Below are positions 3,379 to 63,643 of a DNA stretch of 64,000 bases, in pieces. The notes beneath the pieces were generated by a model. The model saw nothing but the letters and a program-made list of their open reading frames with translations. It had not been told where the DNA came from and ran no database searches. Source of the stretch: a virus (taxonomy: Duplodnaviria; Heunggongvirae; Uroviricota; Caudoviricetes). The DNA is taken from positions 37,578 through 101,577 of IMG/VR virus record IMGVR_UViG_2935054407_000002, one strand, 5' to 3'. How positions within the stretch are numbered: position 1 is the first letter of the stretch; each line of letters starts with the position of its first letter. A program made the position numbers and the translations under genes.

Positions 3379-4176
3379 TCAGGAGGAGGGTTGATCGCGG
3401 GGCTCTACACCTGGCGGGAGAGACGCGGCACGGCCTTCCCACCACTGCCGCCACACCTTGCGCGCCTCGTCGCCGCCGGTACCGGCGGTAACGCGCTTCC
3501 AGGTGTCGAACAACTCGTCCGCTTTGTGAAGCAGCGGGGAATCGGCATCGAAGATCGGGACGGCTTGGCAACCATCGTGATCGTGGTACTTCGCTCCGCC
3601 GTACCGGCTATCACCAGCGGTTTCGGCGGACTCATACACGGCGCCGCGGGAAATCAGCATCGCGCACCATGAGCACGGGTCGCCGTCCCCGATGCGAGCC
3701 CAGCCGAGCGCGTCCTCGTCATCGTGAGAGGTGGCTTCCATGACATCCCGGCCGCCCTCAAGCGCAAGCCTGGTCGCGGTACCAGAGATCGTGACCGCCA
3801 TCCGGTCCCGCGCCTGCGCTGGCGTCGCACCAAGTCTCAAGGACTTCCGCATCACCGCCATGCCGGCGCTGTCCAGAGCCTCGGTCAACTGCTCCTGGGT
3901 GAGGGTCCGCGGCTCGGCCATCACGACCTCACCGGAGACACCCGCTGCGGTACGGAGTTGTCGGTAGTACGGGCCTGCGAGGCTCGCAGAGCGCTCCCGG
4001 CTGGTCATGACCATGGCAGCGAGCGCCATCTGTACACCCGGCCACGACTCCTCGGGCTGCTCCAGGTTGAACAGCAACCGGAGGAGCTTCACAACGTCGC
4101 GGACGAGGCTGGACGACACCACCCGCTGCTGTGCCTGGTAACGGGCAGCGGCGCGCTGCTGCTCAAGGTCTGACAT
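3379..4176 (-). CDS. MuF-like minor head / capsid morphogenesis protein
   Basis: Lies after the portal gene. CSWC...HDHDGC motif region typical of SPP1 gp7/MuF family. Confidence 0.65.
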   Translation of the reverse strand: MSDLEQQRAAARYQAQQRVVSSSLVRDVVKLLRLLFNLEQPEESWPGVQMALAAMVMTSRERSASLAGPYYRQLRTAAGVSGEVVMAEPRTLTQEQLTEALDSAGMAVMRKSLRLGATPAQARDRMAVTISGTATRLALEGGRDVMEATSHDDEDALGWARIGDGDPCSWCAMLISRGAVYESAETAGDSRYGGAKYHDHDGCQAVPIFDADSPLLHKADELFDTWKRVTAGTGGDEARKVWRQWWEGRAASLPPGVEPRDQPSS

Positions 4177-5575: not shown

Positions 5576-5590
5576 CCCCTCGATTGATCG

Positions 5591-7240
5591 TCAGAATCCG
5601 TAAACGCGGCCCGTGCGGGTCCTCTTCTTGCGGTTCTTGTACTTCGGGGAAGCGAGCACCAGGCGGCGGACCATGCGAGCGCCGATCACACACACAGCGG
5701 CGTCGATCTTCTTCGGTGAGTCCGGAGACTCCTTACCGATCGACACACCCCATCGGTTGGGCCGGCGCCGAACATTCCCAACGTGCCGAGCAACCCGGGC
5801 GTCACCGTCGTGCCGGAATGCGCGCTCGTTGATCTCGGTCTCAGTGAGCTCGCAGGCGAGCGTGAAGTCGTAGGTGCGTGACCTCATGTCCCACGCGATC
5901 GGCTGCGGATCCTTACCGTCCGGCACGGAATGCACGAGCAGCTTCTCGGCGTACCGGCCTGGCCACGTGACCTTCGCGAACCCTTCCCACTCCTTGACGT
6001 CAGCGAAGAACGCCAACACGTCCCACCGGTCGAACATCTGCTCAACCGCGGCGTCCACCTCAGCAACCGGCACGACCGATTCCGTGCTGTGCGAGGTGTC
6101 CGGCTCCCACACGCCGATCGTGAAGACGTACCCGTCCGACATGCGGCACCCAAGCAGCGCAGTGGCGTCCCGCGACTTGGAGCCGTCGAAAAACGCGACG
6201 ATCTCCTCGCCGTCGGCAACCAGCTCGCTCGGATCCGCGATCAACGACCACGCTTGAGGCGTCATCCACGCATCCTGGGCTGCGGTAGGCCAGTTCAAGT
6301 ACTTCCGCTTGGAGTCGTCGGGCTTGCTCCGCGGATCCCAGATGCGTTCCATGATCGGACGTGTCTTCTGCCAGAAGCAGTCCTCGTACACGAACTCCAA
6401 GGCCCGGCGGAGTGAGTCCTCGTCCGTCATGTCCGTGTCCGGTGGAGCAACCCGTGCGTCGTACAGAATCCGTGACTCGCCGCGGGTCTTGCCTTCCTCC
6501 TGCGCCACCCACGCATCCCATGACGCCTCAGCTACCGATCCGATGCCGGGAATCCAGGAGTTGCAGGTCTCCAGCATCCGGCTACCGGACTTCGTGAGGT
6601 TGTCCTCCAAGGTCGCGGCTAGATCCGGGCCGCCGTTGGAGGGCTTCCAGTGCTCGGTCTCGTCAGCTATGACGCAACTCGACTCCGCGCCTTCAGCCGC
6701 AGTCGACGAAGCCGTGATCACCTCAAGGGTGCCCTCAGGAGCCTTGTAGTAGCGGGTCTTCGCCGGGTCGAGAGCGAACTCTGTGACGATCCGAGAGCCT
6801 TTCGGCGCGAACGCCCGCACCATCCGCATGGTGTTCGCCGTCTGTGACTCCGCAGTAGCGGCGATCTGCACCAACGGCATGTCCACAGGCTTGCCACGAA
6901 CCCCGCCAGGAGACTTCGAATCGAAGTCCAGCACCCGGACCGGAGCGCAAAGCTCAGCCAGGGCCATCAGAGCGGCGAACGGTGACTTACCCGACCCCTT
7001 CGCTAGCCGACGAACCCCGTGGTGGTAGAGCCAGTTGCCGTCCTCATCCACCGCGTACCAGTGAAGGAGGAACCGCACCTGCGACTCAACGAACTTCCAC
7101 GGCAACCCCGCGCGCGGCCCGTTCGGATGCCGCAGGTATTTGCTTGACCACCGGAGCACTTCCCAGCCGAGGGTGAACTGCGGAATCTCCTCAGGCAGGG
7201 TGATAAGCCGGTCAGCCGGAGAGACGACGACGCCACTCAT
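5591..7240 (-). CDS. Terminase large subunit
   Basis: About 550 aa with an N-terminal ATPase-like region and a C-terminal nuclease-like region. Start probably at MSGVVVSP; overlaps TerS. Confidence 0.85.
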   Translation of the reverse strand: MSGVVVSPADRLITLPEEIPQFTLGWEVLRWSSKYLRHPNGPRAGLPWKFVESQVRFLLHWYAVDEDGNWLYHHGVRRLAKGSGKSPFAALMALAELCAPVRVLDFDSKSPGGVRGKPVDMPLVQIAATAESQTANTMRMVRAFAPKGSRIVTEFALDPAKTRYYKAPEGTLEVITASSTAAEGAESSCVIADETEHWKPSNGGPDLAATLEDNLTKSGSRMLETCNSWIPGIGSVAEASWDAWVAQEEGKTRGESRILYDARVAPPDTDMTDEDSLRRALEFVYEDCFWQKTRPIMERIWDPRSKPDDSKRKYLNWPTAAQDAWMTPQAWSLIADPSELVADGEEIVAFFDGSKSRDATALLGCRMSDGYVFTIGVWEPDTSHSTESVVPVAEVDAAVEQMFDRWDVLAFFADVKEWEGFAKVTWPGRYAEKLLVHSVPDGKDPQPIAWDMRSRTYDFTLACELTETEINERAFRHDGDARVARHVGNVRRRPNRWGVSIGKESPDSPKKIDAAVCVIGARMVRRLVLASPKYKNRKKRTRTGRVYGF

Positions 7241-7646
7241 CGAGAGCCTCCACAGCCGCCTCCTCATCGGCATCCGTCTGCACCGCGCGCTCCAACTCCA
7301 CCCGCACCCGGCGCCGATCCCCTTCAGTCGTCAGCAGGCTCGACATGCCGGACATCACGGCAGCGAACATCTGGGCAGAGAACCGGCTCGCTTCCAAATT
7401 TCGGGACATGGCCTCCGCCACATACCGGGCCGTGGCCCAGTCGGACGCCTCGTAGAAAACCCGCTGCCCTGACAGCCCCAACGATCGGAACCAGTTCTGC
7501 GCAATCGGATGCCATGCCTCATCTGGCTCCTCAACAGGAAGCGGACCACCATCAACCTGAACCTTCGTGACCGCTTCCTGCTCCGCCTTCGTCCGATGCC
7601 CATGGCGCTGCCCTGAGCGCTTCCCTACGGGGCCACGAGAACCCAT
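7212..7646 (-). CDS. Terminase small subunit (putative)
   Basis: About 145 aa ORF directly upstream of and overlapping TerL. GGAGGTG ribosome-binding site before the internal ATG (MGSRGPVGKR...). Confidence 0.55.
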   Translation of the reverse strand: MGSRGPVGKRSGQRHGHRTKAEQEAVTKVQVDGGPLPVEEPDEAWHPIAQNWFRSLGLSGQRVFYEASDWATARYVAEAMSRNLEASRFSAQMFAAVMSGMSSLLTTEGDRRRVRVELERAVQTDADEEAAVEALDEWRRRLSG

Positions 7647-30806: not shown

Positions 30807-31322
30807 CGCCTCCAGGGCGGCTTCTACGGTCGGGCAAGCACTGAGGTAGGAGCACTTGCCGCACAGCTCTACACAGCGGCACAGCTCCGTTTTAGCGTGG
30901 TTCGCGGCGTGCTGGAGGATCCCCCGAGCCGCACACCACAGATCATCCGCCATCATCGGTTGCCCGCAGAGGGTGACGCCGATGTAGGAGCCCGGCCCCG
31001 CCTCCCGAACGGCTCCGGACGTGTACCGTCCTCGGCGGGTCGTGGGCGGCTCCAGGTGCGGCGGCACAGCGGGGTCGCGGACGTGCAGCGTCCCGAACGC
31101 TGGCCCGTCGTCGGGGGCGAGGTGGTTCGTCGGCCCCATCCACAAGGTGCCCGCCGGCGGGTGCGCGGACCGTCGCAGCCAGTTGGTCATGGTCTGGGCT
31201 CGGGCCGCCGACACCTGCTCGTCGGCCTCCCGGCGGAGACGGTCCACCTCCACGCGCAGGAACAGCGCCTCGCGGCGAAGCGTCTCCTCGGACGCCTTGT
31301 CGAGCTGGGCGACGGTCAGCAT
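30801..31322 (-). CDS. Hypothetical protein with a C-terminal Cys cluster
   Basis: CRCVELCGKCSYLSACP. Confidence 0.5.
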   Translation of the reverse strand: MLTVAQLDKASEETLRREALFLRVEVDRLRREADEQVSAARAQTMTNWLRRSAHPPAGTLWMGPTNHLAPDDGPAFGTLHVRDPAVPPHLEPPTTRRGRYTSGAVREAGPGSYIGVTLCGQPMMADDLWCAARGILQHAANHAKTELCRCVELCGKCSYLSACPTVEAALEAM

Positions 31323-32128
31323 CGAATCTCCTCGGCGCTAACGCGGTTCAGGCTCGGCAGAGGCGGGATGATCTCGGCCAGCCATCCGTCAGGGGCCGCG
31401 GTGAAGTGCGGCGCCGCCTCCGAGACCCACCGGGAGCGGACAGCCCTGGTGGTTGTCTCCTCCTGGGTGCGCTTGTCCACGTACGTGATGTCCTCCTCCG
31501 CCGTGTGGCGGACACACACCCTGCCGCGCTTCACACCGGCCGGGTAGTCGTTCCAGTTGATGCCGTGCTCGGTCCACAGCATGTCCTGCATCTTCCCGGC
31601 GGAGACGCCGTTGAGCTGCTTGTGGGAGAACTTCGCCTGCGCCGCCATCGTGACGCTGTTGCGGACGCAGTCGCGTTGCCGCCACAGGAAGTAGTTCGCG
31701 ACTTCGACGGGGTCGGGGATGGTGAAGACGCGGGCGTCGAACGTGGCGTGGGCGTCGTCGTAGCTGATGCCGTAGACGCGATTGAACGCAACGGTGGCGG
31801 TGGACGCGGCGATCGAGGCGATCTTCTGCACGACCCCGCCGAACCACGGCTGCGTGCCGTGGGCGTCGAAGTCCGTCAGCAGGATCGAGCACTCATCCGA
31901 CTGGGTGAACGCAAACACGCTGCCGGACATCTCCGCGCACAGGGCTTCGGCGACGGCGTCCATGGCGGCGACCACGGCGAAGTCGTACGGCTTGTCCGCG
32001 TGCCTCAGGAGGCTGTGAAAGGCCCTGCCATCGACCCGGGCGACGGTGAACGTGCGGCGCGGCAGAACCATGCGGGTCGGCTGCTCATACGCCTTGATGC
32101 GGTCTCCGAGAGCCGTCTTGTCGGTCAT
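31316..32128 (-). CDS. Thg1-like protein (tRNA-His guanylyltransferase / 3'-5' polymerase family)
   Basis: Thg1 motifs TVARVDGRAFHSL (cf. VVRLDGRNFH), FTQSDECSILL (cf. GQSDEYSFVF), YFLWRQRDCVRNS (cf. YLSWRQADCHINN). Confidence 0.7.
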   Translation of the reverse strand: MTDKTALGDRIKAYEQPTRMVLPRRTFTVARVDGRAFHSLLRHADKPYDFAVVAAMDAVAEALCAEMSGSVFAFTQSDECSILLTDFDAHGTQPWFGGVVQKIASIAASTATVAFNRVYGISYDDAHATFDARVFTIPDPVEVANYFLWRQRDCVRNSVTMAAQAKFSHKQLNGVSAGKMQDMLWTEHGINWNDYPAGVKRGRVCVRHTAEEDITYVDKRTQEETTTRAVRSRWVSEAAPHFTAAPDGWLAEIIPPLPSLNRVSAEEIRC

Positions 32129-32207
32129 GTGATCTCTTCCAGGGGTGGGGGAGATGGGTTCAGTTTGCCTGTGCCGGCCCGTAGGAGGCGGGCCGACAAC
32201 GGCAGAG

Positions 32208-32507
32208 TTAGGGCGCCTCGTGGTTGCACGTGACGACGGGAACGTTCCCTGTGGCATCCAAGACGGCCCACGCCTCGTTGAGGGTGTCGAACTGGCCGAG
32301 CGGTTCGATGTCCAGGCCGAGACGGCGGTGCGCGGAGACGTCCTTGGTGTTCGGGTGCGTTTCGCGGTGCTCCGCCATCCACTCGTGCAGGTGGTGCTCG
32401 ACGATAGCCGGGCGGGGGCTCTCGCCGTCGGGGTGAGTTGCAACGCGGTACACGTGGGCGTGGTAGCCGTCTGACTCGCAGACACAGCGGGCAGAGGGGT
32501 CGTCCAT
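32208..32507 (-). CDS. His-rich hypothetical protein
   Basis: Start MDDPSARCVCESDGYHAHVY... Confidence 0.4.
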   Translation of the reverse strand: MDDPSARCVCESDGYHAHVYRVATHPDGESPRPAIVEHHLHEWMAEHRETHPNTKDVSAHRRLGLDIEPLGQFDTLNEAWAVLDATGNVPVVTCNHEAP

Positions 32508-38509: not shown

Positions 38510-38991
38510 CGGGCATCTCCCTGCCGCTGATACAGAACCTCGGACATGGCGGACTCGAACCGGATCCGCCAGTCGCCCGGCAGCTCCCGGGCACGCAACT
38601 CGAAGTGAGCGAGCCGCTTCTTCTCGCTGTCTCCCGACCAGACCCGCTCACCGTCTCGGGTGACCGTGACCGCTCCGCAGCCGACGGCGCAGACGCGCGT
38701 CAGTGGAAGCACCGCAGGTTTGGGCGGGCAGCTCAAGCAGCCGCCCGGCACCGGGGTCGTGGAGAACGGGGGCAGGTCGCTTCCGGGGCCTTCATGTCCG
38801 CAGTACATCCACCGGGACCCGCGGGCGAACCTGCTCGCCAGCATCCGGGTGCGCTTCCCCTGCCGGCTGACGGCGTACACGTACGGGTAAGCCAGCTCAG
38901 TCACGGCGAGGTAGCGGTGCTCACCCCAGCGGGTGTCGTTGTAGGCCCACGTCTGCCCGACCTCGACAGCGATCCGATCTGGGCGGGTCAC
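38473..38991 (-). CDS. Hypothetical protein
   Basis: 172 aa ORF. Confidence 0.5.
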   Translation of the reverse strand: MTRPDRIAVEVGQTWAYNDTRWGEHRYLAVTELAYPYVYAVSRQGKRTRMLASRFARGSRWMYCGHEGPGSDLPPFSTTPVPGGCLSCPPKPAVLPLTRVCAVGCGAVTVTRDGERVWSGDSEKKRLAHFELRARELPGDWRIRFESAMSEVLYQRQGDARWVLTFRGLGFA

Positions 38992-39174
38992 GCGATCTTC
39001 CTCTCGTCGGCCAGAACGGCAGCCCTGATGGTGGGGTCAGTGCTCATCCAGTTCGCGAGGTTGGCGATCAGCGCTTCGATGTCGCGCTCCTCGACGGCCT
39101 GGAGGTAGCCGTGCCTCAGGGCGCGGGCGGCGCGGACAGCGCCGGCGAAGTTGGTCATGAGGGGTCCTCTCGGG

Positions 39175-40557
39175 TCAGACGGCGCGGAGATGTCCGCCGG
39201 GGGCGGGCGGGTTCTGGCCTGGCGTGTTGGGTGCCATGTCGACGAAGCGGCTGTAGTGGAGCTGGCTTGCGACGGTGATCGTGGCGCGGGGCCCGTTGCG
39301 GTTCTTGGCGACGATCAGGTCGGCCTCGCCGGCCCGCGCACAGGTGGGTTCGTAGTAGTCGTCGCGGTGAAGGAGGATCACGATGTCGCTGTCCTGCTCA
39401 ATGGCGCCGCTTTCGCGCAGGTCAGAGGCGACGGGTCTCTTGTCGGCGCGCTTCTCGGACTCGCGGCTGAGCTGAGACAGCAGCATGATCGGCACCCGGA
39501 ACTCCATCGCGAGGAGCTTCATCCCGCGGGTGAGAGCGGCGATCTCCTGCTCTCGGCTGGCGGCCTTCGGTGCTGTCAACAGCTGCAGGTAGTCGACGAC
39601 GACCATGCCGATCGGGCCGGTTCGCAGGAGCGTTCGCAGGACCGAGCGGATTCGCTCCAGGGAGCATCCCGGCTGGTCGTCGATCGAAAGCGGGGCGCCG
39701 GACACGCGGGCCGCGGTTTGTGAGAGCCGCGCAAGCTGTTCGCCGGTGACGTCGTAGTCACGGATCGCCTTCAGCGACACCTTCGCCTCGGCCGAGGAGA
39801 TCCGCTGCAGCACCTCGCGGCGAGACATCTCCAGGGTGAACATCACGACGCGCTGGTTGTCCCGCAGAGCCGCAGAGCGGACCACGTCAACGGCGAACGT
39901 TGACTTACCCACCGAAGGGCGAGCGCCCACCACGATGAGCTGACCCGCCTGAAATGACGTGACGAGCGACGCCAAGTCAACGTACGGCGGGACGATCCCC
40001 TCTGCCTTCGGCGGCGGGTTCTCCAGGTCGTTCAGCAGGTCGATCATGTCTTGGGAGACGTCCTGCGGCTGATCGCCGAGTCGGTGGGCGGCGGCGTCGT
40101 CGACTAGCTTGCGGATCATGTCGACGTCGGCTTCCGGATCCCAGCCCGCGTTCTCCGTCATCTGGAGACTGCGGCGAAGCGCCGTGTTGATCCGGCGGCG
40201 GAGTCCATCGTTGGCGACCCGCCGGGCGTGGTACGACAGCGAGCCGGCCGCGGCGGCGTGCTCCATCAGCGTCGCCAGGTACGGGCCTCCGCCGACGCGA
40301 TCGGTATCGCCGCGGGCATGCAGTTCGCCGAACACGGAGGCGGGGTCGATGGGCTTGCCCGCGTGCAGCAGCGACAGTGCCGCGGCGAACACCGCGCCAG
40401 CGGCGGAGAAGAAGTCGTCGACGGCCAGCAGGTCAGCGGCTTCGCCCATCGCTTCCTTCGACTGGATCACCGCGCCGGCCACCGCGACCTCTGCGGCGAT
40501 GACCGCGTCGCTGGGGGCCCAGCCGTCGAAGCTGCTCAGGTCGATTTCTGCGGTCAC
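39175..40557 (-). CDS. dnaB: Replicative DNA helicase DnaB
   Basis: Walker A GARPSVGKST, Walker B VVVDYLQL. N-terminal DnaB domain. Confidence 0.85.
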   Translation of the reverse strand: MTAEIDLSSFDGWAPSDAVIAAEVAVAGAVIQSKEAMGEAADLLAVDDFFSAAGAVFAAALSLLHAGKPIDPASVFGELHARGDTDRVGGGPYLATLMEHAAAAGSLSYHARRVANDGLRRRINTALRRSLQMTENAGWDPEADVDMIRKLVDDAAAHRLGDQPQDVSQDMIDLLNDLENPPPKAEGIVPPYVDLASLVTSFQAGQLIVVGARPSVGKSTFAVDVVRSAALRDNQRVVMFTLEMSRREVLQRISSAEAKVSLKAIRDYDVTGEQLARLSQTAARVSGAPLSIDDQPGCSLERIRSVLRTLLRTGPIGMVVVDYLQLLTAPKAASREQEIAALTRGMKLLAMEFRVPIMLLSQLSRESEKRADKRPVASDLRESGAIEQDSDIVILLHRDDYYEPTCARAGEADLIVAKNRNGPRATITVASQLHYSRFVDMAPNTPGQNPPAPGGHLRAV

Positions 40558-41156
40558 TTCGACCTCCGCCGGTCCGCGCCGATCATCTTCACTACGTGGG
40601 CGCCGTCCTGGATGCGGGAAGAGACCCGCTCGCCGAGGAGGTCGCGCAGTTTCGGGTTGTTGGAGGCGACCAGCGTGGGCCTCTGGAAAGCCCAGCGGGT
40701 GTCGAGCAGCCCCATGAGGTGGTCGGCGTCCCAGTCGGAGACGCGAATGGATCCGAGATCATCGAGCGCGAGGATGTCGACCGTCGCCAGGTCGTTGAAC
40801 GCGACATCGTTCACGGGCGGGGTGAGGAGCTGCTTCAGGTCGTATCCGGTCTTGATCTCCATGCCGCCGCGAAACCCGGCCTTGATGAGGGTTTCTTTGA
40901 TCTTCCACAGGGACCAGGACTTGCCGACGCCGACGTTGCCGATCAGCAGCATCCCGGCCGCATCGTGGGCGAGGAACCTGCGGACCCACGTCGTGATCTC
41001 CGGCAGCAGCTCACCATCGGCGGCGAACACCGCCGGGCGCTCGGCGTAGAAGTGCTTCAGCCGGAACTGAACCTGCTCTTCCAGCCAGGACGCGCTGGCC
41101 TCAGCGCGAGCGGCCTCGTAGTCGTAGTCGTCCGGGTCGGACTCGTTGAGGTTCAT
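40554..41156 (-). CDS. DnaC/IstB-like helicase loader ATPase
   Basis: Walker A LLIGNVGVGKSW, Walker B ILALDDLG. ATGA overlap with dnaB. Confidence 0.75.
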   Translation of the reverse strand: MNLNESDPDDYDYEAARAEASASWLEEQVQFRLKHFYAERPAVFAADGELLPEITTWVRRFLAHDAAGMLLIGNVGVGKSWSLWKIKETLIKAGFRGGMEIKTGYDLKQLLTPPVNDVAFNDLATVDILALDDLGSIRVSDWDADHLMGLLDTRWAFQRPTLVASNNPKLRDLLGERVSSRIQDGAHVVKMIGADRRRSK

Positions 41157-42217
41157 ACCTCGATCTCCATGTCAGCGAGTTCTTCAGCAGTTGGGGTGTG
41201 AGAGCGGGCACCGGAGTTCGCGGCGAAGCGGGAGTCTCTAGAGTCCTTGGGCTTCTTGGCCGCGGCGTCGCGCTGAAGCTGCGTGGCGAGGTCCTGCCAT
41301 CCGCCAGCGCCCATGTTGCGGGCTGCGATGAGGAGCGCTTCGTGATCGGTGTTCTTGTCGCCGAGGAGCGCACGGGCTTGCTTGCCCACCCGATTGCGGA
41401 GCGTCTCGGCAGGAGCGGGCTGCCCGGCTGCCTTCGCGCCTTCCATGTAGGCGGCGATGACGGTCCCGGCATTGATCGGCTTGGCCGAATCGCGGCGCGG
41501 CGGAGCCGTGCTGCCCGAAGGGAAAGATCCTAGATCCAAGGTCCTAGGTCCTAGATCCAGAGTCGAGGGCTCGCGAGGGTCTCGCGAATCCTCGCGGGAG
41601 TCTCGCGAGGATTTACCTTTTTGCTGGTCAGGCTGAGTCTCGAATTTCTCGGGAGCCTTCGCCGAGCCCTCGGGAGTGTTCGTGGAGGGCTCGCGAGGGC
41701 TCCCGGAGGTCAGATCCTCACCATGTCCGCTTTGATGCGATTCAGCCGGAATCGAGGGCTCGCGAGAGTCTCGCGAGGGTTCGCTGAGGTTTCGAGGGGG
41801 AGACGCGGAAGGGGGGCACTCCTCGCTTCCGTGGATCGAGCACTCGTCCTTCTCTCGCCAATGGTCGGCGAGGGGACACCGAGGGAGTCGCGACTTGCCG
41901 GCCTTGTCGACCTTCTGGTGGTCGTCCCACGTCACGAAGTGGAGGTAGCGCTTACCGTCGCAGCCGACATACCGGCAGATGGCGCCCACCTGCTGCAGCT
42001 CGGCCAACTCGTTGTCCAAGTCGGCGGCTGTGTGGAGCTTCTGCTCTGACCGGACCGCCCACAGTGCGCCGTTGATGACGGCGGGCTTGTCGGGGTGGCG
42101 ACCTCGGTCGTCAGCCTGAGTGGTCAGGCCGTAAAACGTGCGCTCAGCTTCGAGCGACACTTCCGCAAGTGTTTCCGACTGGAACGCTTCCGGCTTGAGA
42201 CTGCGAATCCGCGCCAC
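41153..42217 (-). CDS. Putative replication initiator with an internal repeat-encoded low-complexity region (lambda O-like role)
   Basis: Sits upstream of and coupled to the loader and helicase genes. The central part encodes SRDSREPS-type repeats from iteron-like DNA. Confidence 0.5.
   Translation of the reverse strand: MARIRSLKPEAFQSETLAEVSLEAERTFYGLTTQADDRGRHPDKPAVINGALWAVRSEQKLHTAADLDNELAELQQVGAICRYVGCDGKRYLHFVTWDDHQKVDKAGKSRLPRCPLADHWREKDECSIHGSEECPPSASPPRNLSEPSRDSREPSIPAESHQSGHGEDLTSGSPREPSTNTPEGSAKAPEKFETQPDQQKGKSSRDSREDSRDPREPSTLDLGPRTLDLGSFPSGSTAPPRRDSAKPINAGTVIAAYMEGAKAAGQPAPAETLRNRVGKQARALLGDKNTDHEALLIAARNMGAGGWQDLATQLQRDAAAKKPKDSRDSRFAANSGARSHTPTAEELADMEIEV
41515..41800. repeat. 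Iteron-like repeats inside the initiator gene; candidate phage origin of replication
   Basis: Multiple (G)CTCGCGAG(G/A)G / TCTCGCGAG copies and tcctagatcca/ggtcctaggtcctagatcc repeats. Confidence 0.5.
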
Positions 42218-42366
42218 TGGTGGCGTCTCCCTTAGTGCTGGTGAGGGTCTTACCGGGCAAGCGAAAGCTGGCCCCGTCTTCGTGTTGACGTGCTGCTAAA
42301 ACCGGCGCGCATTGGCGTACCTCGTCAGTTGCTTGAGGGGCTTGCCGTCTCCGACCCGGACCACGT

Positions 42367-42847
42367 TCATCCGGTGGGGGCCGTACGACCGATAGAGCTG
42401 CCACCAGGTCCGGGGGTGCCATGGGTGGCCGTGTATGACTCGCTCCCACCCCGCTTGGTGCGCATCCGCTGGGGTTGGCGCCCGCCGAAGTCAACAACCG
42501 ATCCGATGGGCGGCTCGTCAGGCAGGTCAACGCCAACGCCGTAAGTGGTGAGCATCCCGATGAACCACGAGTTCTCCAGGTAGGCGGCGAATGCCGCGTC
42601 TCTCGGGACTTCGAGGTCCTTGCCGAGGATGGTGTTGCAGGTATTGCAGAGCAGGCCCCTCACGGCCCAATTGCCTCGGCCTGCGTCGTGGTCGATGAAC
42701 AGCATCCGCTTGGAGTTCTGCCAGCCCGGCAAGCGGCAGACCTGGCAGGAGTTATCCGCTTCATCGAGGAGGCGATCGAATTGCTCGCACGTCATCCGGT
42801 AGTGCTTGTGCCGGCAGGTCTCGTGGGCGGGGAAATCGCGGTTCATC
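42367..42847 (-). CDS. Recombination endonuclease VII family (Holliday junction resolvase)
   Basis: CQVCRLPGW...LFIDHDAGRGNWAVRGLLCNTCNTILG is the classic EndoVII signature. Confidence 0.75.
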
Positions 42848-42910
42848 TGGCCTCTTAGCGTTTCGGGGGGTGCCAAATAACACCGGTGGCCAAGGTTCCC
42901 CTTGATCCGG

Positions 42911-42981
42911 GTGTACGTACACCTTACACTTTGGTGTACGTACACCGCCAGGAGGTCACTTTGAAATCCGTACGTACACCC
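42911..42981. promoter_or_regulatory. Operator cluster: three copies of the palindrome GTGTACGTACAC
   Basis: Perfect 12-bp palindromes at 42911-42922 and 42935-42946. A third, partial copy overlaps the TTG start of the RHH gene. Confidence 0.6.
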
Positions 42982-43227
42982 CGCACACTGGGGAGCGTGC
43001 CCAACAAGCCCCGCACCCAGCACCGGTCGGTTCGCGTCGATGACGCCGACTGGGGAGACCTCGACGCGGTCGCGGAGATGAGCGGCACCGACCGAGCGAA
43101 GATCATCAACGCGTACATCCAGTACCACCTGCACCGGGCAGGAGCGAGCCTCCCCGAACGACCGACACGCGAGCAGGTGGCTAAGGCCATCGCGCACCGC
43201 GTGCTCGGCTCTCCTGCTTCTGACTGA
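42961..43227 (+). CDS. Ribbon-helix-helix (CopG/Arc-like) DNA-binding protein
   Basis: AGGAGG, six bases, then a TTG start. RSVRVDDADWGDLDAVAEMSGTDRAKIINAYIQ fits the RHH beta-alpha-alpha pattern. Confidence 0.55.
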   Translation: MKSVRTPRTLGSVPNKPRTQHRSVRVDDADWGDLDAVAEMSGTDRAKIINAYIQYHLHRAGASLPERPTREQVAKAIAHRVLGSPASD

Positions 43228-43253
43228 CCCGCTCACCCCTCCACCCCAGGCGA

Positions 43254-43622
43254 TCATGAGGTCACTTCCACGACTTCGATCCCCGCGGCCTTCGCTCTCC
43301 GCATGCAATCCCTGGTCCCGGTAGCGGCCCCAGCGGGGAACGCGAGACATAGGTGGGCGCCGAGGGTGACCATGTGCTGGTTGCGGATGTGGCCAGCGGC
43401 GCGGCCGTGGGTGTCCCAGTCGGCGGGGTGCCGCTCCACCTCGATGTGGTTGCGGCGGGCCCACGCGTCAGCGAACCGGTCAGCTCCGCGGGCGTGCCCG
43501 TGGACCACGAGCATCATTCCGTCGAGCTGCGTGACGTCATGCCACGCCGCGGTGAGCGCGGCTTCGAGCGCTTCGACGTTGGTCCAACGGCGGCTGCCGG
43601 TCACGAGAATCCGGTAGATCAC
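43254..43622 (-). CDS. SLOG/DUF2493-like Rossmann protein
   Basis: ILVTGSRRW...VVHGHARGADRFADAW pattern. Confidence 0.45.
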   Translation of the reverse strand: MIYRILVTGSRRWTNVEALEAALTAAWHDVTQLDGMMLVVHGHARGADRFADAWARRNHIEVERHPADWDTHGRAAGHIRNQHMVTLGAHLCLAFPAGAATGTRDCMRRAKAAGIEVVEVTS

Positions 43623-44673: not shown

Positions 44674-44943
44674 TCATGCAGGGCTCTGACTGGTGGCATC
44701 TCGCGGTTCGAGGCGCTGGCGGGCTTGCCGGTCCCAGCGGCGGATCCGGTCGCGTTCAGGCTTCGACATGCCGGCCTGGATGCCGATGGTCGGCTGGCGA
44801 AGCGCGTCGAACGTGCAGGGAATAAGCGACTCACACGCTCGACAGAGGTTCACCAGGGCGGGCGGCGGGCGGCCTTTGGTACTGAAGAACCGGTCAGGGT
44901 CACCGGTGCGGCAAGCGCCTCGCTGGCGCCAGTCCACGCTCAT
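44674..44943 (-). CDS. WhiB-family transcription factor
   Basis: ACRTGDPDRFF...LCRACESLIPC four-Cys pattern. Confidence 0.7.
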   Translation of the reverse strand: MSVDWRQRGACRTGDPDRFFSTKGRPPPALVNLCRACESLIPCTFDALRQPTIGIQAGMSKPERDRIRRWDRQARQRLEPRDATSQSPA

Positions 44944-45710
44944 GCCGTCACCCGCTGCTTCTGCCGGCGGACCTTGTACCGCTCGTACTCCGCGGACGCC
45001 GCGACGATCAGCGGAGAACGGTCCCCCTCCTCGCGGTGGGCCCGCTGGCAGCGACCCAACTCCAACGGGGTCATCCGCTGCACCCGGCGACGGATCTCGT
45101 CCTTGAGCTCAGCGTCGGTGAGGTCAAGCAGTTCGTCGTCCCAGTCCTGCGGACGAGGCCAGCGGTTACGTGTGGCCATCGCATGAGCGTGGGAAGCGGA
45201 GATGCGCTCCCCCGTGGACGCGGTCGGCGCCGGTTGATTCCACAACTCGTCGTACAGATCACGAACCAGGCGAGCTGTCACCGCGAGGATCCGCTGCCGA
45301 CCGAGAACACGAATGAACTCGTTCTCAGGCTTGCCGCAGCGCAATGCCAGCGCCCGAGCAGACCAGCCCAAAGCGATCAACGCCTGCAGTCGCCGCTTCG
45401 TACCGGCCGCGTCCACCGCGACCATGTCCGGCATCTGCTCCAGCGTCGGCCAGAACTCCAGCAGCTTGCTCGCGTTCGCCGCGGACATCATGACCGCGGG
45501 CGCCTTCCCTGCTGCCGGTTCCCCGTACATCAGGTACATAAGGGACCTGAGAGTGACGCCCGCTAGATCAGCGATGACCGCCAAGCTCAGTCCGTACTCG
45601 CGAAGCTCGCGGACGTGGGCACGCGCTGGCTCCGCCTCGACGTGAGGCTTCCACAGGCCCCGCTCGCGCATCAGAGCGCGGTGTTTCATGTAAGCGCGCC
45701 GGCTCGTCAT
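44940..45710 (-). CDS. HTH-containing hypothetical protein
   Basis: 256 aa. LREYGLSLAVIADLAGVTLRSL HTH-like segment. Confidence 0.5.
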   Translation of the reverse strand: MTSRRAYMKHRALMRERGLWKPHVEAEPARAHVRELREYGLSLAVIADLAGVTLRSLMYLMYGEPAAGKAPAVMMSAANASKLLEFWPTLEQMPDMVAVDAAGTKRRLQALIALGWSARALALRCGKPENEFIRVLGRQRILAVTARLVRDLYDELWNQPAPTASTGERISASHAHAMATRNRWPRPQDWDDELLDLTDAELKDEIRRRVQRMTPLELGRCQRAHREEGDRSPLIVAASAEYERYKVRRQKQRVTA

Positions 45711-46486
45711 GACGCCTCCGCTAGCCGGGCTTGAGCGCGTTCCCGCGCCACCCTCAGCGACGTGTACGGCACCCCCATGGCGCGGGCAGCGGCTTTCACC
45801 GTCTGTCCCCTCGCCACGATGCGGTCGGAGCGGCGCAGCAGATCCAAGTCCCGGGCCTGAGCGGCGGGATCCTGCTCCTTCGTCACTTCAGTGCGGGAAC
45901 CCTGCTTACGCGACCGCCGACGCCGCTCACTGGCGCGCTCGTCCGGAGTCATGCCACCCCAAGTGCCGTACCGCTCCGGCTGCTCAAGGGCGTAATCGAG
46001 GCATTCGGAGCGCACCGGGCACCAGCCGCACAGCCGCTTCGCATACCGCTCGCGATCATCACGATCCGGCGGCCGTTCCCCCTCCCCAGGGAAGAACAAC
46101 ATCAGGTCCTCGTCGCGGCACGCAGCCCGACTCATCCACTCAACGTCCAGCACCCGCTGAACCGGCTTCGGCGCAGGCTCAGCAACCACCTCTGCGGGCG
46201 GCTCCGACGCGTCAGGGATCAGCCCGAACCACTCCAGCCACTCCCGCGCCTCAGCAACATCACGGGCATGCTCAGGCTTCGTACAGCGGCGCCGCGGCGT
46301 CCGGGTGCACCCGTGAGAGGCAGCGAAGTAGTCCGCCACCCACAACGCCGCCCGCCGGCGCTCTTCATCACTCGCGATCGGAGCGGCCACGTACACCGTC
46401 AGCAGGGCATCATCAGCGAACCTGGGAGTGGCCGGCTTCGAGTCGAAGGTGCGGTCTGCTTGCTCGATCCTCCACGCGGTCGCCAT
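45707..46486 (-). CDS. WhiB-like domain fused to a C-terminal HTH
   Basis: CRDEDLMLFFP...CGWCPVRSECLDYALEQPERYGTWGGMTPDER. C-terminal GQTVKAAARAMGVPYTSLRVARER. Confidence 0.65.
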   Translation of the reverse strand: MATAWRIEQADRTFDSKPATPRFADDALLTVYVAAPIASDEERRRAALWVADYFAASHGCTRTPRRRCTKPEHARDVAEAREWLEWFGLIPDASEPPAEVVAEPAPKPVQRVLDVEWMSRAACRDEDLMLFFPGEGERPPDRDDRERYAKRLCGWCPVRSECLDYALEQPERYGTWGGMTPDERASERRRRSRKQGSRTEVTKEQDPAAQARDLDLLRRSDRIVARGQTVKAAARAMGVPYTSLRVARERAQARLAEAS

Positions 46487-46680
46487 CAGGTTGCCTCCGT
46501 TCGGTGCTGTTCGGCAGTGTTCAAAACCGTCCACTCGTGTCCAGCGGTCTCCAGTGCTGTCCGGGTGAGAGCGGCCATCGCGGCGACCCGGGCCCGCGCC
46601 GCCGCCGCCGCGGTCTCGTCCGCGGCGGCACGTTCCAGGCACGGCAAGTGCGCAGCCAGGCGAGCAAGCGTGGCCTCAGG
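46486..46680 (-). CDS. Small hypothetical protein
   Basis: Start MPEATLARLAAHLPCLER... Confidence 0.3.
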   Translation of the reverse strand, partial: PEATLARLAAHLPCLERAAADETAAAAARARVAAMAALTRTALETAGHEWTVLNTAEQHRTEAT

Positions 46681-62149: not shown

Positions 62150-63643
62150 TCAAGCATGGGAGCGAACCACCACGTCAACTGACTCCTCGTCCGGAATATT
62201 CTTCCGCCCCGGCCCGACCGGCATGATCGCGATCTTCTCAAACAGCCACACCAGCAACTCCCGTTTCTGAGGCAACTCCAGTGCATCCCACGCAGCAGGA
62301 ACAGCTTCCGGGCTGACCATAACGAGACTCGCAACATGCGCAGGGAAATGAATTCTTTTCATTTTCTGCTCAGCCGCTTCGATCTCCGCCGTCAAAACAC
62401 CCTCTACGCGAGCCAAGCCCGTAGCCGACAACTTCCCCTGAGCGGCCTGCACATAGAACTCCTCCAGCCGCGCACGCTTCTCCTCCACCTCCGCAAGCAC
62501 ACCCCCCACCTCATCACCCACGTCGCCCGTCACCGCTAGAGCCGCCAAGGTCGGCCTCGACATCAAAAGCGCTACAGCCAGCGACTCCACATACGTATCC
62601 ACCCGCTCCTTGTGCCGGCCCACATGGAACGACTTCTCCTTGACGGGGTACTTCCGCACGCACGAGTAGTAGTTGATGCCCCGCCTAAGCCGCGGCCGGC
62701 ACGGAGACCCGCAGACCCCACAGACCGCGATACCGCTGAGAAGGTGCCGGATCGCAGACGGGCGGGCTCCACCACGGGCCGGATCGGTGAGTTTCGCCAC
62801 GATCAGGTAGTAGGTGTGGTCGTCGAGGATGCGCGGGAACCACTGCTCAGTACTTTTGATTTTCACGCCGAGATGAACCCGGTACCCCACGTAGGAGGGG
62901 TTGATCACCAGCCGTTTGATCGGGGTCGACGTCCACTTCGCGCCGCGTGGTGACGGGGTCCCGCGGTCGTTGAGGATCCGCGCGATCGTGTTCAGCGGGG
63001 TCCCCTGCTTGATCATGTCCGCGATGTCGCGAATCACCGCAGCCTCGTCCTGGTCGATGTCCTGCCCGACCAGATCCCCAGTGTCCGGGTCATACCGCCG
63101 GCGGTAGCCGTACAGGCGGCGGCCGTGCGGAGCCCCTGCCGCAGCACGGGATCTCGTGGTGCGGCGAAGCCGTCCGCTGAGGCGCTCGGACTCGAACGCC
63201 GAATCAACGCCGTCATCAGCCAGGACCTTCCAGTCGCGGGCCCGCTGCATGTTGTACGTCCGGTCATGCGATGTCACATGAATCAGGACGCCCTGCTCAC
63301 GGCACGTCTGCAGCAGGCTCATCCACTCGACGGGCTTGCGGTCGCCGCGGGAGCTCTCCCACAGGACGAGGACGTCGAAGGTGCCGGCTTCGAGCTGGGC
63401 GAGGAGGCGGTCCCATTCGGGGCGGCCCTTGCGGGCGAAGCGTGAGGCGGAACGGTCCAGTTCTGCGAAGACCTCTTTGATGTGCCAGCCGTTCTCGCGG
63501 CAGGCGTCGGTGTTCGCGGTGTTCTGCTCTGGAACGGATCTTGTTTCAGCTGATCTCTGACCAGCCTTGATCTTGCTGACGCGGCCGTAGATCGCGGCCT
63601 GTAGGGCGTCGTCCGGGGCGGGGCGGCGAGAGGCGGGGGGCAT
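62150..63643 (-). CDS. Large serine recombinase (integrase)
   Basis: Resolvase-type N-terminus with AAIYGRVS (catalytic Ser). Recombinase domain and Cys-rich zinc ribbon (CGVCGSPC...YYSC). Confidence 0.85.
   Translation of the reverse strand: MPPASRRPAPDDALQAAIYGRVSKIKAGQRSAETRSVPEQNTANTDACRENGWHIKEVFAELDRSASRFARKGRPEWDRLLAQLEAGTFDVLVLWESSRGDRKPVEWMSLLQTCREQGVLIHVTSHDRTYNMQRARDWKVLADDGVDSAFESERLSGRLRRTTRSRAAAGAPHGRRLYGYRRRYDPDTGDLVGQDIDQDEAAVIRDIADMIKQGTPLNTIARILNDRGTPSPRGAKWTSTPIKRLVINPSYVGYRVHLGVKIKSTEQWFPRILDDHTYYLIVAKLTDPARGGARPSAIRHLLSGIAVCGVCGSPCRPRLRRGINYYSCVRKYPVKEKSFHVGRHKERVDTYVESLAVALLMSRPTLAALAVTGDVGDEVGGVLAEVEEKRARLEEFYVQAAQGKLSATGLARVEGVLTAEIEAAEQKMKRIHFPAHVASLVMVSPEAVPAAWDALELPQKRELLVWLFEKIAIMPVGPGRKNIPDEESVDVVVRSHA

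What the first reader, a model, noticed from the sequence alone, without database searches (positions are those of the whole stretch)
41153..42217. Iteron-like TCGCGAG repeats inside the replication initiator gene; candidate origin
The central part of the putative initiator gene (about 41515-41800) contains many copies of (G)CTCGCGAG(G/A)G / TCTCGCGAG. It also contains tcctagatcca/ggtcctagg repeats. On translation these give SRDSREPS-type low-complexity repeats. The gene is coupled to the DnaC-like loader and DnaB genes downstream. This resembles the lambda O gene with its embedded origin.
Basis: seen in the sequence. Interest (0 to 1): 0.55.

Follow-up and report, generated by a model that had tools for sequence, protein, structure and literature searches.

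The report
Replication origin inside phage initiator gene
The middle of a prophage replication-initiator gene carries arrays of short DNA repeats, kept at the DNA level in relatives from both high-GC actinomycete and much lower-GC contigs, that most likely form the phage's replication origin, as in phage lambda but in an unstudied protein family.

Summary

**What is there.** Gene 41153-42217 (-) encodes a 354-aa PHROG "replication initiation protein". It overlaps the DnaC/IstB-like loader gene by 4 nt, and the loader overlaps dnaB by 4 nt. Its predicted disordered linker is encoded by:
- 13 CTCGCGAG-type 8-9-bp palindromic sites in three arrays, spaced 10-11 bp;
- five tandem 7-bp GGAYCTW units;
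- two of the least stable 40-bp stretches in the 64-kb window, one on each side of array C.

**Why the repeats are DNA-level.**
- The periods (7, 10, 11) are not multiples of 3.
- The same word is read in two frames, using rare codons.
- Resampling synonymous codons never reproduced the counts.

**Family evidence.** The same layout recurs in over 100 of 190 non-redundant homologues, including Mycobacterium phage Redi gp61. Site runs are about 400-fold, and GGAYC arrays about 700-fold, denser in the gene than in its flanks. The sites fall in all three frames, and the tandem units give different peptides in different homologues. In 57 Streptomyces prophages synonymous variation is halved over the second array and the tandem units.

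**Verdict.** This is a lambda O / pSK41 RepA_N-style origin within the initiator gene, in an uncharacterised winged-helix family with no Pfam model. Protein binding and the replication start remain untested.

The parts
41153..42217 (-). Replication initiator gene (354 aa, GTG start). It has an N-terminal winged-helix domain, a disordered linker and a C-terminal helical domain.
   Evidence: ORF. PHROG 2149 and 1408 'replication initiation protein', E about 1e-27 over aa 1-~200. No Pfam, NCBIfam or PDB-sequence hit. The identical protein is annotated as hypothetical in Streptosporangium sp. NPDC050855. AF2 model.
41903..42217 (-). Coding region for the N-terminal winged-helix domain (aa 1-~105), the presumed origin-binding domain.
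41813..41890 (-). Coding region for a conserved Cys/His-rich segment (aa 110-135: C114, H117, C126, C134). It may be a zinc knuckle between the WH domain and the linker.
   Evidence: These columns are nearly invariant in alignment A1. The model confidence is low here. The function is inferred only.
41759..41797 (.). Iteron array A. Sites: CTCGCGAG (41759), CTCGCGAG (41770), TTCGCTGAG (41780) and a degenerate TTTCGAGG (41790). Spacing is 10-11 bp.
   Evidence: TRF reports period 11, 4.0 copies, at 41753-41794. The array is a 76%-identical direct repeat of array C, 189 bp away (family D2).
41648..41708 (.). Iteron array B: six sites at 10-11 bp. They are CTCGGGAG, TTCGCCGAG, CTCGGGAG, TTCGTGGAG, CTCGCGAG and CTCCCGGAG.
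41610..41647 (.). A/T-enriched patch between arrays B and C (GATTTACCTTTTTGCTGGTCAGGCTGAGTCTCGAATTT). It is a candidate unwinding region and contains a CTGACCAG word that recurs upstream of array 2 in one inspected relative (L163).
   Evidence: The 40-bp window starting at 41610 is the 8th least stable in the 64 kb by nearest-neighbour free energy. GC is 0.57. A related conserved element, GAAAA..CAGGTCAG, sits upstream of array 2 in the Streptomyces homologues.
41570..41609 (.). Iteron array C: CTCGCGAG (41570), CTCGCGAA (41581), CTCGCGGG (41591), CTCGCGAG (41602). Spacings are 11, 10 and 11 bp.
   Evidence: TRF reports period 11, 4.5 copies. The sites are read alternately in two frames, as C-TCG-CGA-G and NCT-CGC-GAG.
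41525..41560 (-). Five tandem 7-bp GGAYCTW units on the coding strand (GGATCTA GGACCTA GGACCTT GGATCTA GGATCT). It is a candidate DNA-unwinding or helicase-loading element, or a second class of binding site.
   Evidence: TRF reports period 7, 4.9 copies. The 40-bp window at 41522 is the 3rd least stable in the 64 kb. Five GGAYCTW units were seen against 0.49 expected under synonymous resampling, reached in 0 of 5000 draws. In the family, 104 of 190 genes carry such an array, always downstream of the iterons and on the coding strand.
41243..41485 (-). Coding region for the C-terminal four-helix domain (aa 245-325), the presumed contact with the loader or helicase.
   Evidence: pLDDT is 87-97 over aa 251-320. 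This domain is swapped among homologues and found in only 3 fetched loci.
40554..41156 (-). DnaC/IstB-like helicase loader gene. It overlaps the initiator stop by 4 nt.
   Evidence: PHROG 50 'DnaC-like helicase loader', E 6e-19. NCBIfam DnaI, DnaC and IstB relatives match, but below their cut-offs. Pfam IstB_IS21 at E 0.002.
39175..40557 (-). DnaB-type replicative helicase gene. It overlaps the loader stop by 4 nt.
   Evidence: Pfam DnaB_C at 7e-81 and DnaB N-domain at 1e-16. PHROG 19.

Best explanation
Window 41525-41797 is most likely the prophage's origin of replication, embedded in the linker-coding part of its own initiator gene.

**Proposed mechanism** (all steps are inferred; none was tested here)
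1. The initiator's N-terminal winged-helix domain binds the 13 short palindromic CTCGCGAG-type sites.
2. The sites sit one per helical turn, in three arrays, so bound protein lines up on one face of the DNA and bends or wraps it.
3. This stress opens the two easily melted stretches on either side of array C: the 7-bp GGAYCTW tandem array (41525-41560) and the A/T patch (41610-41647).
4. The C-terminal helical domain brings in the DnaC-like loader and DnaB encoded immediately downstream.
5. Transcription and translation of the gene run through the origin, as in lambda.

**Still open:** which repeat class the initiator actually contacts.
For: **DNA-level constraint in the window**
- The periods, 7, 10 and 11 bp, are not multiples of 3.
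- The palindrome is read in two frames, using the rare CGA codon and rare NCT codons.
- I kept the protein sequence and redrew codons from neighbouring genes 5000 times. Exact sites: 0.25 expected, 5 observed, never reached. GGAYCTW units: 0.49 expected, 5 observed, never reached. Sites with one mismatch allowed: P = 0.0012.

**Origin-like anatomy**
- The arrays lie in a predicted disordered linker (pLDDT <50 over most of aa 109-237) between a winged-helix N-domain and a helical C-domain.
- Array C is flanked by the 3rd and 8th least stable 40-bp windows of the 64 kb.
- The initiator, loader and dnaB genes overlap by 4 nt each.

**Conservation in the family**
- The 240 homologue loci were retrieved with N-domain peptide patterns only, so retrieval was not biased towards the repeats.
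- Exact CTCGCGAG occurs at 0.80 per kb in the genes and 0.015 per kb in the flanks.
- Of 256 neighbour spacings in the genes, 100 are 10-11 bp and 24 are 20-22 bp. In the flanks, 1 of 500 is 10-11 bp. Frame use is 140/139/106.
- Runs of at least 3 generalised sites occur in 119 of 190 genes, at 1.07 against 0.0027 per kb.
- Tandem GGAYC arrays occur in 104 of 190 genes, at 0.63 against 0.0009 per kb. All but one are on the coding strand.
- Subfamilies keep the layout but change the centre of the site word, for example CTCCCGGAG, CTCACCGAA and CTCGNCGAG.
- The tandem unit has period 6, 7 or 8 in different homologues and gives different peptides.
- In 57 Streptomyces prophage genes, synonymous entropy is 0.31 over array 2 plus the tandem units, against about 0.61 in the folded domains (P = 1.7e-4). 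The rare codons GGA, TCT, AGG, TTG, GAT and CCT are nearly invariant.
- Homologues are followed by a loader gene (75 of 76 Streptomyces loci) or by dnaB (24 of 69 viral contigs).

**Precedent**
- The pSK41 origin lies centrally within rep and encodes a dispensable linker (PMC5703833).
Against: - No binding or replication data exist for any member of this family in the literature searched.
- The sites are only 8-9 bp long and 10-11 bp apart. This is unlike lambda's 19-bp iterons and leaves little room for one dimer per site.
- The helix in the recognition position of the model (aa 64-77) is acidic, so the DNA-binding surface is unclear.
- Two different repeat classes are conserved, and I cannot say which one the initiator reads.
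- The repeats also give the mRNA strand an unusually stable fold, z = -4.7.
- The low-stability patches are still 43-48% GC.
- Many homologue counts are not phylogenetically independent.
Confidence: 0.72

Rival explanations
1. The repeats are cis-acting protein-binding DNA, but for a job other than starting replication. Candidates are autoregulation or a transcriptional roadblock of the replication operon, a parC-like centromere, or a packaging (pac) site.
For: - Two to three clusters of about 11-bp-spaced short repeats resemble the R1 parC / ParR layout (own knowledge).
- The winged-helix centromere-binding protein TubR is among the Foldseek matches.
- P1 pac is built from clustered GATC-containing hexamers (own knowledge), and the 7-mer array carries 3 GATC sites.
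Against: - No partition NTPase or terminase gene is adjacent.
- The prophage has a serine integrase, and terL and portal lie about 35 kb away.
- Across the family the arrays travel with the initiator gene and with loader or dnaB genes, not with partition or packaging genes.
- Low-stability DNA next to the sites fits unwinding.
Confidence: 0.12
2. The repeats act at the RNA level. Hairpins in the initiator mRNA would control its translation, stability or coupling to the loader gene. An antisense terminator is another possibility.
For: - The mRNA-strand fold of 41515-41805 is -125 kcal/mol against -100 for shuffles, z = -4.7.
- A 13-pair terminator-like hairpin followed by a T-run lies on the antisense strand at 41586-41614.
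Against: - Any array of palindromes folds well.
- Helical-turn spacing, polar 6-8-bp tandem units and changes of site word with the layout kept are hallmarks of protein-DNA sites, not of a conserved RNA fold.
- No Rfam family matches.
Confidence: 0.05
3. The conserved DNA is mainly a recombination junction. Shared sequence at the N-domain / C-domain boundary would promote module shuffling between phages and have no direct role in initiation.
For: C-terminal domains and downstream genes are swapped immediately after the tandem array. DNA identity to the closest homologue peaks (0.82-0.87) over the end of array C and the 7-mers.
Against: This does not explain helical phasing, palindromy, multiple arrays, a fixed strand or adjacent low-stability DNA. 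Shuffling at an embedded origin is a known by-product in lambdoid O genes (own knowledge).
Confidence: 0.06
4. The repeats only encode a low-complexity disordered linker. Any conservation would be at the peptide level, in the SRDSRE and LDLGPRT motifs.
For: The region is predicted disordered, and similar peptide motifs align among close homologues.
Against: - The periods, 7, 10 and 11 bp, cannot arise from peptide repeats.
- The same DNA word is translated in two or three frames.
- Rare codons are fixed.
- The synonymous-resampling null is rejected.
- Synonymous variation is suppressed.
- Tandem units of period 6, 7 or 8 give unrelated peptides in different homologues.
Confidence: 0.03

Closest known systems
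Phage lambda O protein and ori-lambda (lambdoid phages, including Stx phages)
   Same: - The origin lies in the middle of the initiator gene (PMC7466680).
- Repeated sites with dyad symmetry sit next to an easily melted tract (PMC7466680).
- Site number varies between relatives: 4 or 6 in the lambdoid phages (PMC7466680), 13 here against a shorter single array in the closest homologue.
- The origin-encoded protein segment is a linker between the DNA-binding N-domain and the C-domain that contacts the loader, and the next gene is the loader (own knowledge).
   Different: - There is no sequence relationship: no Pfam Phage_rep_O hit.
- Sites are 8-9 bp at one per helical turn, in two or three arrays. 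Lambda has four 19-bp iterons (iteron length from own knowledge).
- There is an extra polar 6-8-bp tandem GGANC array.
- The phage brings its own DnaB as well as a DnaC-like loader.
RepA_N plasmid initiators (pSK41 Rep and relatives)
   Same: - A winged-helix N-terminal domain of about 120 aa binds boxes located centrally within its own gene.
- The central, origin-encoded segment is a linker.
- The C-terminal domain is variable and host- or partner-specific (PMC5703833).
- The RepA_N NTD structures 4pql and 4pta are among the fold matches.
   Different: - No RepA_N (PF06970) sequence match; the fold similarity is generic winged helix.
- These are phage or prophage genes rather than plasmid genes. 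Only 20 of 72,556 plasmid records carry a relative.
- The site word, spacing and the tandem 7-mer array differ.
- The partner here is probably a loader or helicase, not DnaG.
Mycobacterium phage Redi gp61 and other cluster N 'replication initiation proteins'; Streptomyces phage Austintatious gp39; Micromonospora phage pMLP1
   Same: - They are members of the same protein family, at about 31-41% identity over the N-domain.
- Redi gp61 has four (C/G)TCGCGAG sites at 11 bp followed by four GGAACAG(G) units.
- Austintatious and pMLP1 have 4-6 GGAACAG units.
   Different: - Their tandem unit word differs (GGAACAG against GGAYCTW).
- Their C-domains and downstream genes differ.
- None has a described origin in the literature searched.
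Iteron plasmids with Rep_3 initiators (pPS10, F, R6K, P1, RK2)
   Same: Repeated initiator-binding sites next to an unwinding element whose single strand can be bound sequence-specifically by Rep (PMC4081077). The initiators are winged-helix proteins (own knowledge).
   Different: No Rep_3 match. The following plasmid details are from my own knowledge: their iterons are 17-22 bp direct repeats and lie outside the rep gene.

Membership tests
PHROG 2149 / 1408 'replication initiation protein' (annotation-level family) | Significant match to the family profile | tested here: met
   E 7e-28 and 9e-28 over aa 1-~200. The name is an annotation, not a tested function.
Lambda O / lambdoid origin-in-O-gene system | Initiator homologous to lambda O (Pfam Phage_rep_O) | tested here: not met
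   No Pfam family at E<=0.01 for the window protein, and none relevant at E<=1 for 26 family members.
Lambda O / lambdoid origin-in-O-gene system | Cluster of repeated sites in the middle of the initiator gene, encoding an interdomain linker | tested here: met
   13 sites in 41570-41788, within codons 144-216, inside the pLDDT<50 segment aa 109-237.
Lambda O / lambdoid origin-in-O-gene system | About 19-bp iterons, 4-6 copies, each bound by an O dimer | tested here: not met
   The sites here are 8-9 bp and spaced 10-11 bp centre to centre. Binding stoichiometry cannot be tested with these tools.
Lambda O / lambdoid origin-in-O-gene system | Easily melted (AT-rich) tract adjacent to the iterons | tested here: met
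   The 40-bp windows at 41522 and 41610 rank 3rd and 8th least stable of the 64 kb. The family-wide GC profile dips to 0.45-0.52 over the tandem units.
Lambda O / lambdoid origin-in-O-gene system | Helicase-loader gene immediately downstream | tested here: met
   The DnaC/IstB-like gene overlaps the initiator stop, and dnaB follows.
Lambda O / lambdoid origin-in-O-gene system | Initiator binds the repeats and replication starts there | not testable with these tools
   Needs EMSA or footprinting, plasmid replication assays, or marker-frequency analysis.
RepA_N plasmid initiators (pSK41 type) | RepA_N domain (PF06970) | tested here: not met
   No hit at E<=1 in 26 members.
RepA_N plasmid initiators (pSK41 type) | Winged-helix NTD, origin boxes central in own gene, variable CTD | tested here: met
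   Predicted fold, central repeats, swapped C-domains. This is met at the level of architecture only.
Rep_3 iteron plasmids | Rep_3 domain, and 17-22-bp direct-repeat iterons outside the rep gene | tested here: not met
   No Rep_3 hit. The sites are 8-9-bp palindromes inside the gene.
ParR/parC-type or TubR/tubC-type centromere | Arrays of short repeats phased about 10-12 bp apart | tested here: met
   Spacings are 10-11 bp in three arrays.
ParR/parC-type or TubR/tubC-type centromere | Adjacent partition NTPase gene (ParM, ParA or TubZ), on an extrachromosomal element | tested here: not met
   The neighbours are a loader, DnaB, Endo VII, SLOG and WhiB genes. A serine integrase shows an integrating prophage.

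The most novel reading that the evidence does not exclude
The polar tandem array of 6-8-bp GGANC units is a previously undescribed origin element. It is conserved downstream of the iterons in contigs spanning about 48-74% GC, even where the iteron word has changed. It could be a sequence-specific unwinding or helicase-loading track, read as single-stranded DNA by the initiator or loader, comparable in role to DnaA-trios or to Rep-bound DUE repeats. In this reading, the one-per-turn 8-9-bp palindromes would nucleate a continuous one-face initiator filament rather than a lambda-type O-some. Together these would define a third, very large class of origin-within-initiator-gene replicons.
Probability: 0.3. 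Interest if true: 0.7.

Novelty: new variant of a known kind. Interest (0 to 1): 0.58.

Why it matters
**Unknown origins.** Replication origins are unknown for nearly all actinobacteriophages and for most prophages.

**A sequence-readable signature.** This analysis gives one for a large family: two or three arrays of one-per-turn CTC..GAG palindromes, followed by a polar GGANC tandem array, inside the initiator gene. The family has no Pfam model. The N-domain alone matches 9,191 representative clusters at E<=1e-3.

**Directly testable.** The signature is present in isolated, genetically tractable phages such as Mycobacterium phage Redi. It could yield new replicons for Mycobacterium, Streptomyces and related hosts.

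**A caution for annotation.** Low-complexity peptide repeats can be shadows of DNA elements, and fixed rare codons give them away.

Tried and rejected
- **Close phage relatives.** Megablast of 39000-43500 against 50,697 phage records found nothing. There is no close sequenced phage, so I turned to protein-level relatives.
- **Known protein families.** Pfam, NCBIfam and PDB-sequence searches for the initiator returned nothing useful. The two PDB hits, plant NLRs at E about 0.4, are noise.
- **Literature.** A search for CTCGCGAG returned only eukaryotic BANP/ZBED-type motif papers. Searches for iterons in actinobacteriophages returned only Wetzel et al. 2020 (PMC7157519). Its RepA belongs to other plasmid-type families, and the authors found no repeats.
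- **Known RNA families.** Rfam gave nothing near threshold.
- **Host DnaA boxes.** None within one mismatch of TTGTCCACA or TTATCCACA lies in 40500-42600.
- **Promoters.** The promoter scan found no sigma-70-like site in 38900-43600. The scan does not cover actinomycete promoters.
- **Codon test on the first loci.** A test on the first 160 loci was diluted by the Streptomyces subgroup, which uses another site word. I replaced it with resampling within the window gene and synonymous entropy within the subgroup.
- **Pac site and centromere.** Both were considered and rejected on gene context.
- **Co-variation.** I did not test co-variation between N-domain residues and site word, because shared descent would confound it.
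Full report
**1. What is in the window**

The window is a prophage.
- It carries a serine integrase (62150-63643), an Ant-like gene, and terminase large subunit and portal genes (4163-7273), all on the minus strand.
- The initiator protein is identical to a hypothetical protein of Streptosporangium sp. NPDC050855.

The finding's gene is ORF 41153-42217 (-), 354 aa, with a GTG start that matches the MARIRS N-terminus of its homologues.
- It matches PHROG 2149 and 1408, 'replication initiation protein', at E about 1e-27.
- It matches no Pfam, NCBIfam or PDB sequence.
- Its stop overlaps by 4 nt the start of a DnaC/IstB-like loader gene (40554-41156). That gene overlaps dnaB (39175-40557) in the same way.
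- Two WhiB genes, a SLOG-family gene and an Endo VII-domain gene lie upstream.

**2. The repeats are real and local**

- Exact CTCGCGAG starts at 41570, 41602, 41690, 41759 and 41770, and only once more in the 64 kb.
- With one mismatch allowed, 9 of the window's 44 sites fall in about 210 bp.
- The generalised pattern YTC-N2-3-GAR, plus the site at 41591, gives 13 sites in three arrays. Each array has 10-11-bp spacing:

| Array | Window coordinates | Sites |
|---|---|---|
| A | 41759-41788, with a degenerate fourth unit to 41797 | 3 (+1) |
| B | 41648-41708 | 6 |
| C | 41570-41609 | 4 |

- Arrays A and C are 76%-identical 54-nt direct repeats, 189 bp apart.
- Next to array C lie five tandem 7-bp GGAYCTW units on the coding strand (41525-41560).
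- Tandem Repeats Finder picks out exactly these three features as the only arrays in the window with at least 4 copies and a period that is not a multiple of 3.
- The 7-mer TCGCGAG is not enriched window-wide, at 23 matches against 29 expected. The signal is its clustering.

**3. The repeats are constrained as DNA, not as peptide**

- Periods of 7, 10 and 11 bp cannot come from amino-acid repeats.
- The palindrome is read in two frames. One is C-TCG-CGA-G, giving Ser-Arg-Asp with the rare CGA codon. The other is NCT-CGC-GAG, giving x-Arg-Glu with rare NCT codons. 'SRDSRE' is simply two sites 11 bp apart.
- 'LDLGPRT' is three 7-bp units, 21 bp in all.
- I kept the protein fixed and resampled codons from neighbouring genes 5000 times:

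| Feature | Expected | Observed | Draws reaching observed |
|---|---|---|---|
| Exact CTCGCGAG | 0.25 | 5 | 0 of 5000 |
| Sites with one mismatch allowed | 3.3 | 9 | P = 0.0012 |
| GGAYCTW units | 0.49 | 5 | 0 of 5000 |

**4. Protein architecture**

- The AlphaFold2 model has three parts: a confident N-domain (pLDDT 74-90 over aa 11-100), a disordered stretch (pLDDT <50 over most of aa 109-237) and a confident four-helix C-domain (pLDDT 87-97 over aa 251-320).
- All the repeats lie in the DNA that encodes the disordered stretch.
- The N-domain is a winged helix.
  - Foldseek gives weak matches (E 0.1-0.6, none <=0.001) to CodY-C, Fur, PerR, MecI, TubR and the RepA_N NTD 4pql.
- A conserved Cys/His segment (aa 110-135) follows the N-domain.

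**5. Unwinding candidates**

- By nearest-neighbour free energy, the 40-bp windows at 41522 (the 7-mer array) and 41610 (an A/T patch) are the 3rd and 8th least stable in the 64 kb.
- They flank array C on either side.

**6. Family-wide test**

I fetched 240 homologue loci from genomes, IMG/VR and metagenomes, using N-domain peptide patterns only, so retrieval was not biased towards the repeats. The gene was recognisable in 217 sequences including the window's own; 190 are non-redundant.

| Measure | In the gene | In the flanks |
|---|---|---|
| Exact CTCGCGAG per kb | 0.80 | 0.015 |
| Neighbour spacings of 10-11 bp | 100 of 256 | 1 of 500 |
| Neighbour spacings of 20-22 bp | 24 of 256 | 2 of 500 |
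| Runs of at least 3 generalised sites, per kb | 1.07 (119 of 190 genes) | 0.0027 |
| Tandem GGAYC arrays, per kb | 0.63 (104 of 190 genes) | 0.0009 |

- Sites use the three reading frames 140, 139 and 106 times.
- The tandem arrays are mostly of period 7. All but one are on the coding strand, and they lie downstream of the site arrays.
- The layout holds from contigs of 48% GC to 72% GC.
- The centre of the site word changes between subfamilies: CTCCCGGAG, CTCACCGAA/CTCGGTGAG, CTCG-N-CGAG. The outer CTC..GAG, the 10-11-bp phasing and the two-array layout are kept.
- The tandem unit keeps a GGANC core but has period 6, 7 or 8. It therefore translates into unrelated peptides, such as DLGPRTK, GSKDLRIEG, QGSGIRD and DQDQDQG.
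- In 57 distinct Streptomyces prophage genes (median 78% protein identity), synonymous codon entropy is 0.31 over array 2 plus the tandem units. It is 0.60-0.62 in the folded domains (Mann-Whitney P = 1.7e-4).
- In those genes the codons GGA-TCT-AGG-ATC-TTG-GAT-CCT-GGA-TCT are each the same in 50-57 of 57, although most are rare in Streptomyces.
- The closest homologue has 60% identity and the same WhiB-initiator-loader-DnaB order. It has a single shorter array and the same 7-mers. DNA identity between the two peaks over the end of array C and the 7-mers. Site number therefore varies between relatives, as in lambdoid phages.
- C-domains and downstream genes are swapped. A loader follows in 75 of 76 Streptomyces loci, and dnaB in 24 of 69 viral contigs. 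Some Klebsiella plasmid relatives lie under 'DnaT-like' annotations.
- Isolated phages share the design. Mycobacterium phage Redi gp61 has four (C/G)TCGCGAG sites at 11 bp and then four GGAACAG(G) units. Streptomyces phage Austintatious and Micromonospora pMLP1 carry GGAACAG arrays. Ralstonia RSK1 has other internal repeats.
- The N-domain family is large: 9,191 representative clusters at E<=1e-3.

**7. Interpretation**

The best explanation is an origin of replication embedded in the initiator gene.
- *Shown here:* DNA-level constraint, helical phasing, location in linker-coding DNA, adjacent low-stability DNA, linkage to helicase and loader genes, and deep conservation of the layout.
- *Inferred:* that the winged-helix domain binds the palindromes, that the 7-mer array or the A/T patch melts, and that the C-domain recruits the loader and DnaB.
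- *Open:* which repeat class is the true initiator site. Both classes have conserved cores.
- The tight packing, one 8-9-bp palindrome per turn, suggests a continuous one-face protein array rather than one dimer per 19-bp iteron.

**8. Rivals**

- Another cis function (operator or roadblock, parC-like centromere, pac site) is disfavoured by gene context.
- An RNA-level role is possible, since the mRNA-strand fold has z = -4.7 and an antisense terminator-like hairpin lies at 41586-41614. It does not explain the phasing, the polarity or the changes of site word. Rfam finds nothing.
- A pure recombination junction does not explain the anatomy.
- A purely peptide-level linker is contradicted by sections 3 and 6.

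**9. Comparison with known systems**

- It is equally close to pSK41-type RepA_N initiators. These have a winged-helix NTD, Rep boxes central in rep, a dispensable origin-encoded linker and a partner-specific CTD (PMC5703833).
- It is not a sequence member of either family, nor of Rep_3.
- No description of an origin for this family was found. The search library does not cover subscription-only literature.

**10. Verdict**

- It is a new variant of a known kind, with moderate-to-good interest. The signature is general, can be read from sequence alone, and can be tested at once in tractable phages.

Noticed in passing
window 41586-41614 (+ strand): A terminator-like hairpin of 13 pairs followed by ACCTTTTTGC lies antisense to the initiator gene. 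It is formed by inverted iterons of array C and abuts the A/T patch. It could stop antisense transcription or extrude as a cruciform.
   Followed up: partly
window 41813-41890 (-), initiator aa 110-135: A nearly invariant Cys/His pattern (C114, H117, C126, C134) sits between the winged-helix domain and the linker in the actinobacterial homologues. It may be a zinc knuckle. The model confidence is low there.
   Followed up: no
window 41557-41610 and 41746-41799: Arrays C and A are 54-nt direct repeats, 76% identical and 189 bp start-to-start. That is 18.0 turns at 10.5 bp per turn, so the two arrays would face the same side of the helix. In distant homologues the two arrays are about 194-215 bp apart.
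   Followed up: partly
loci L003-L080 (Streptomyces prophages), about 60-85 nt upstream of the tandem GGATC array: A further conserved element, GAAAA-N2-3-GCAGGTCAG, sits just upstream of array 2. The 7-mer CAGGTCA occurs there in 52 of 104 genes. The window has CCTGACCAGCAAAAAGG at the equivalent place, which reads like the element in the opposite orientation.
   Followed up: partly
IMG/VR and metagenome loci such as L138, L239 and L122 (gene nt 121-148): In the distant subfamily with the N-terminus MARIRTIKPEFPQSE, a first array of three CTCGCGAG-type sites at 10 bp lies inside the coding region of the folded N-domain, encoding R-A-A-S-R-M-L-A-S. There the DNA sites appear to constrain a structured part of the protein.
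   Followed up: no
window 31316-32485 (-): A prophage-encoded Thg1-like tRNA-His guanylyltransferase (Pfam Thg1 at 4e-24 plus Thg1C at 4e-8), which is an unusual phage gene.
   Followed up: no
window 44674-44943 (-) and 45707-46642 (-): Two WhiB-family genes lie upstream of the replication module. The second has a 170-aa N-terminal extension. The closest homologue contig also has WhiB upstream of the initiator (L245).
   Followed up: no
window 42367-43464 (-): The listed 365-aa ORF has its Endonuclease VII domain only at aa 218-297. The upstream part is Pro/Arg/Gly-rich and is probably not coding. The true gene is therefore likely shorter, and there may be a sizeable non-coding stretch upstream of the initiator gene.
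   Followed up: no
Klebsiella pneumoniae plasmids, e.g. NZ_CP097708.1 59492-59824 (H133): Enterobacterial relatives of the N-domain lie under genes annotated 'DnaT-like ssDNA-binding domain-containing protein / Primosomal protein 1'. This suggests that another C-terminal module is fused to the same origin-binding domain.
   Followed up: no
L242, Ralstonia phage RSK1 ORF49 (gene nt ~315-480): This family member lacks CTCGCGAG and GGANC arrays. Its linker region instead carries a 33-bp direct repeat (2 copies) and a 21-bp repeat (about 3 copies). This may be an alternative origin design on the same protein scaffold.
   Followed up: no
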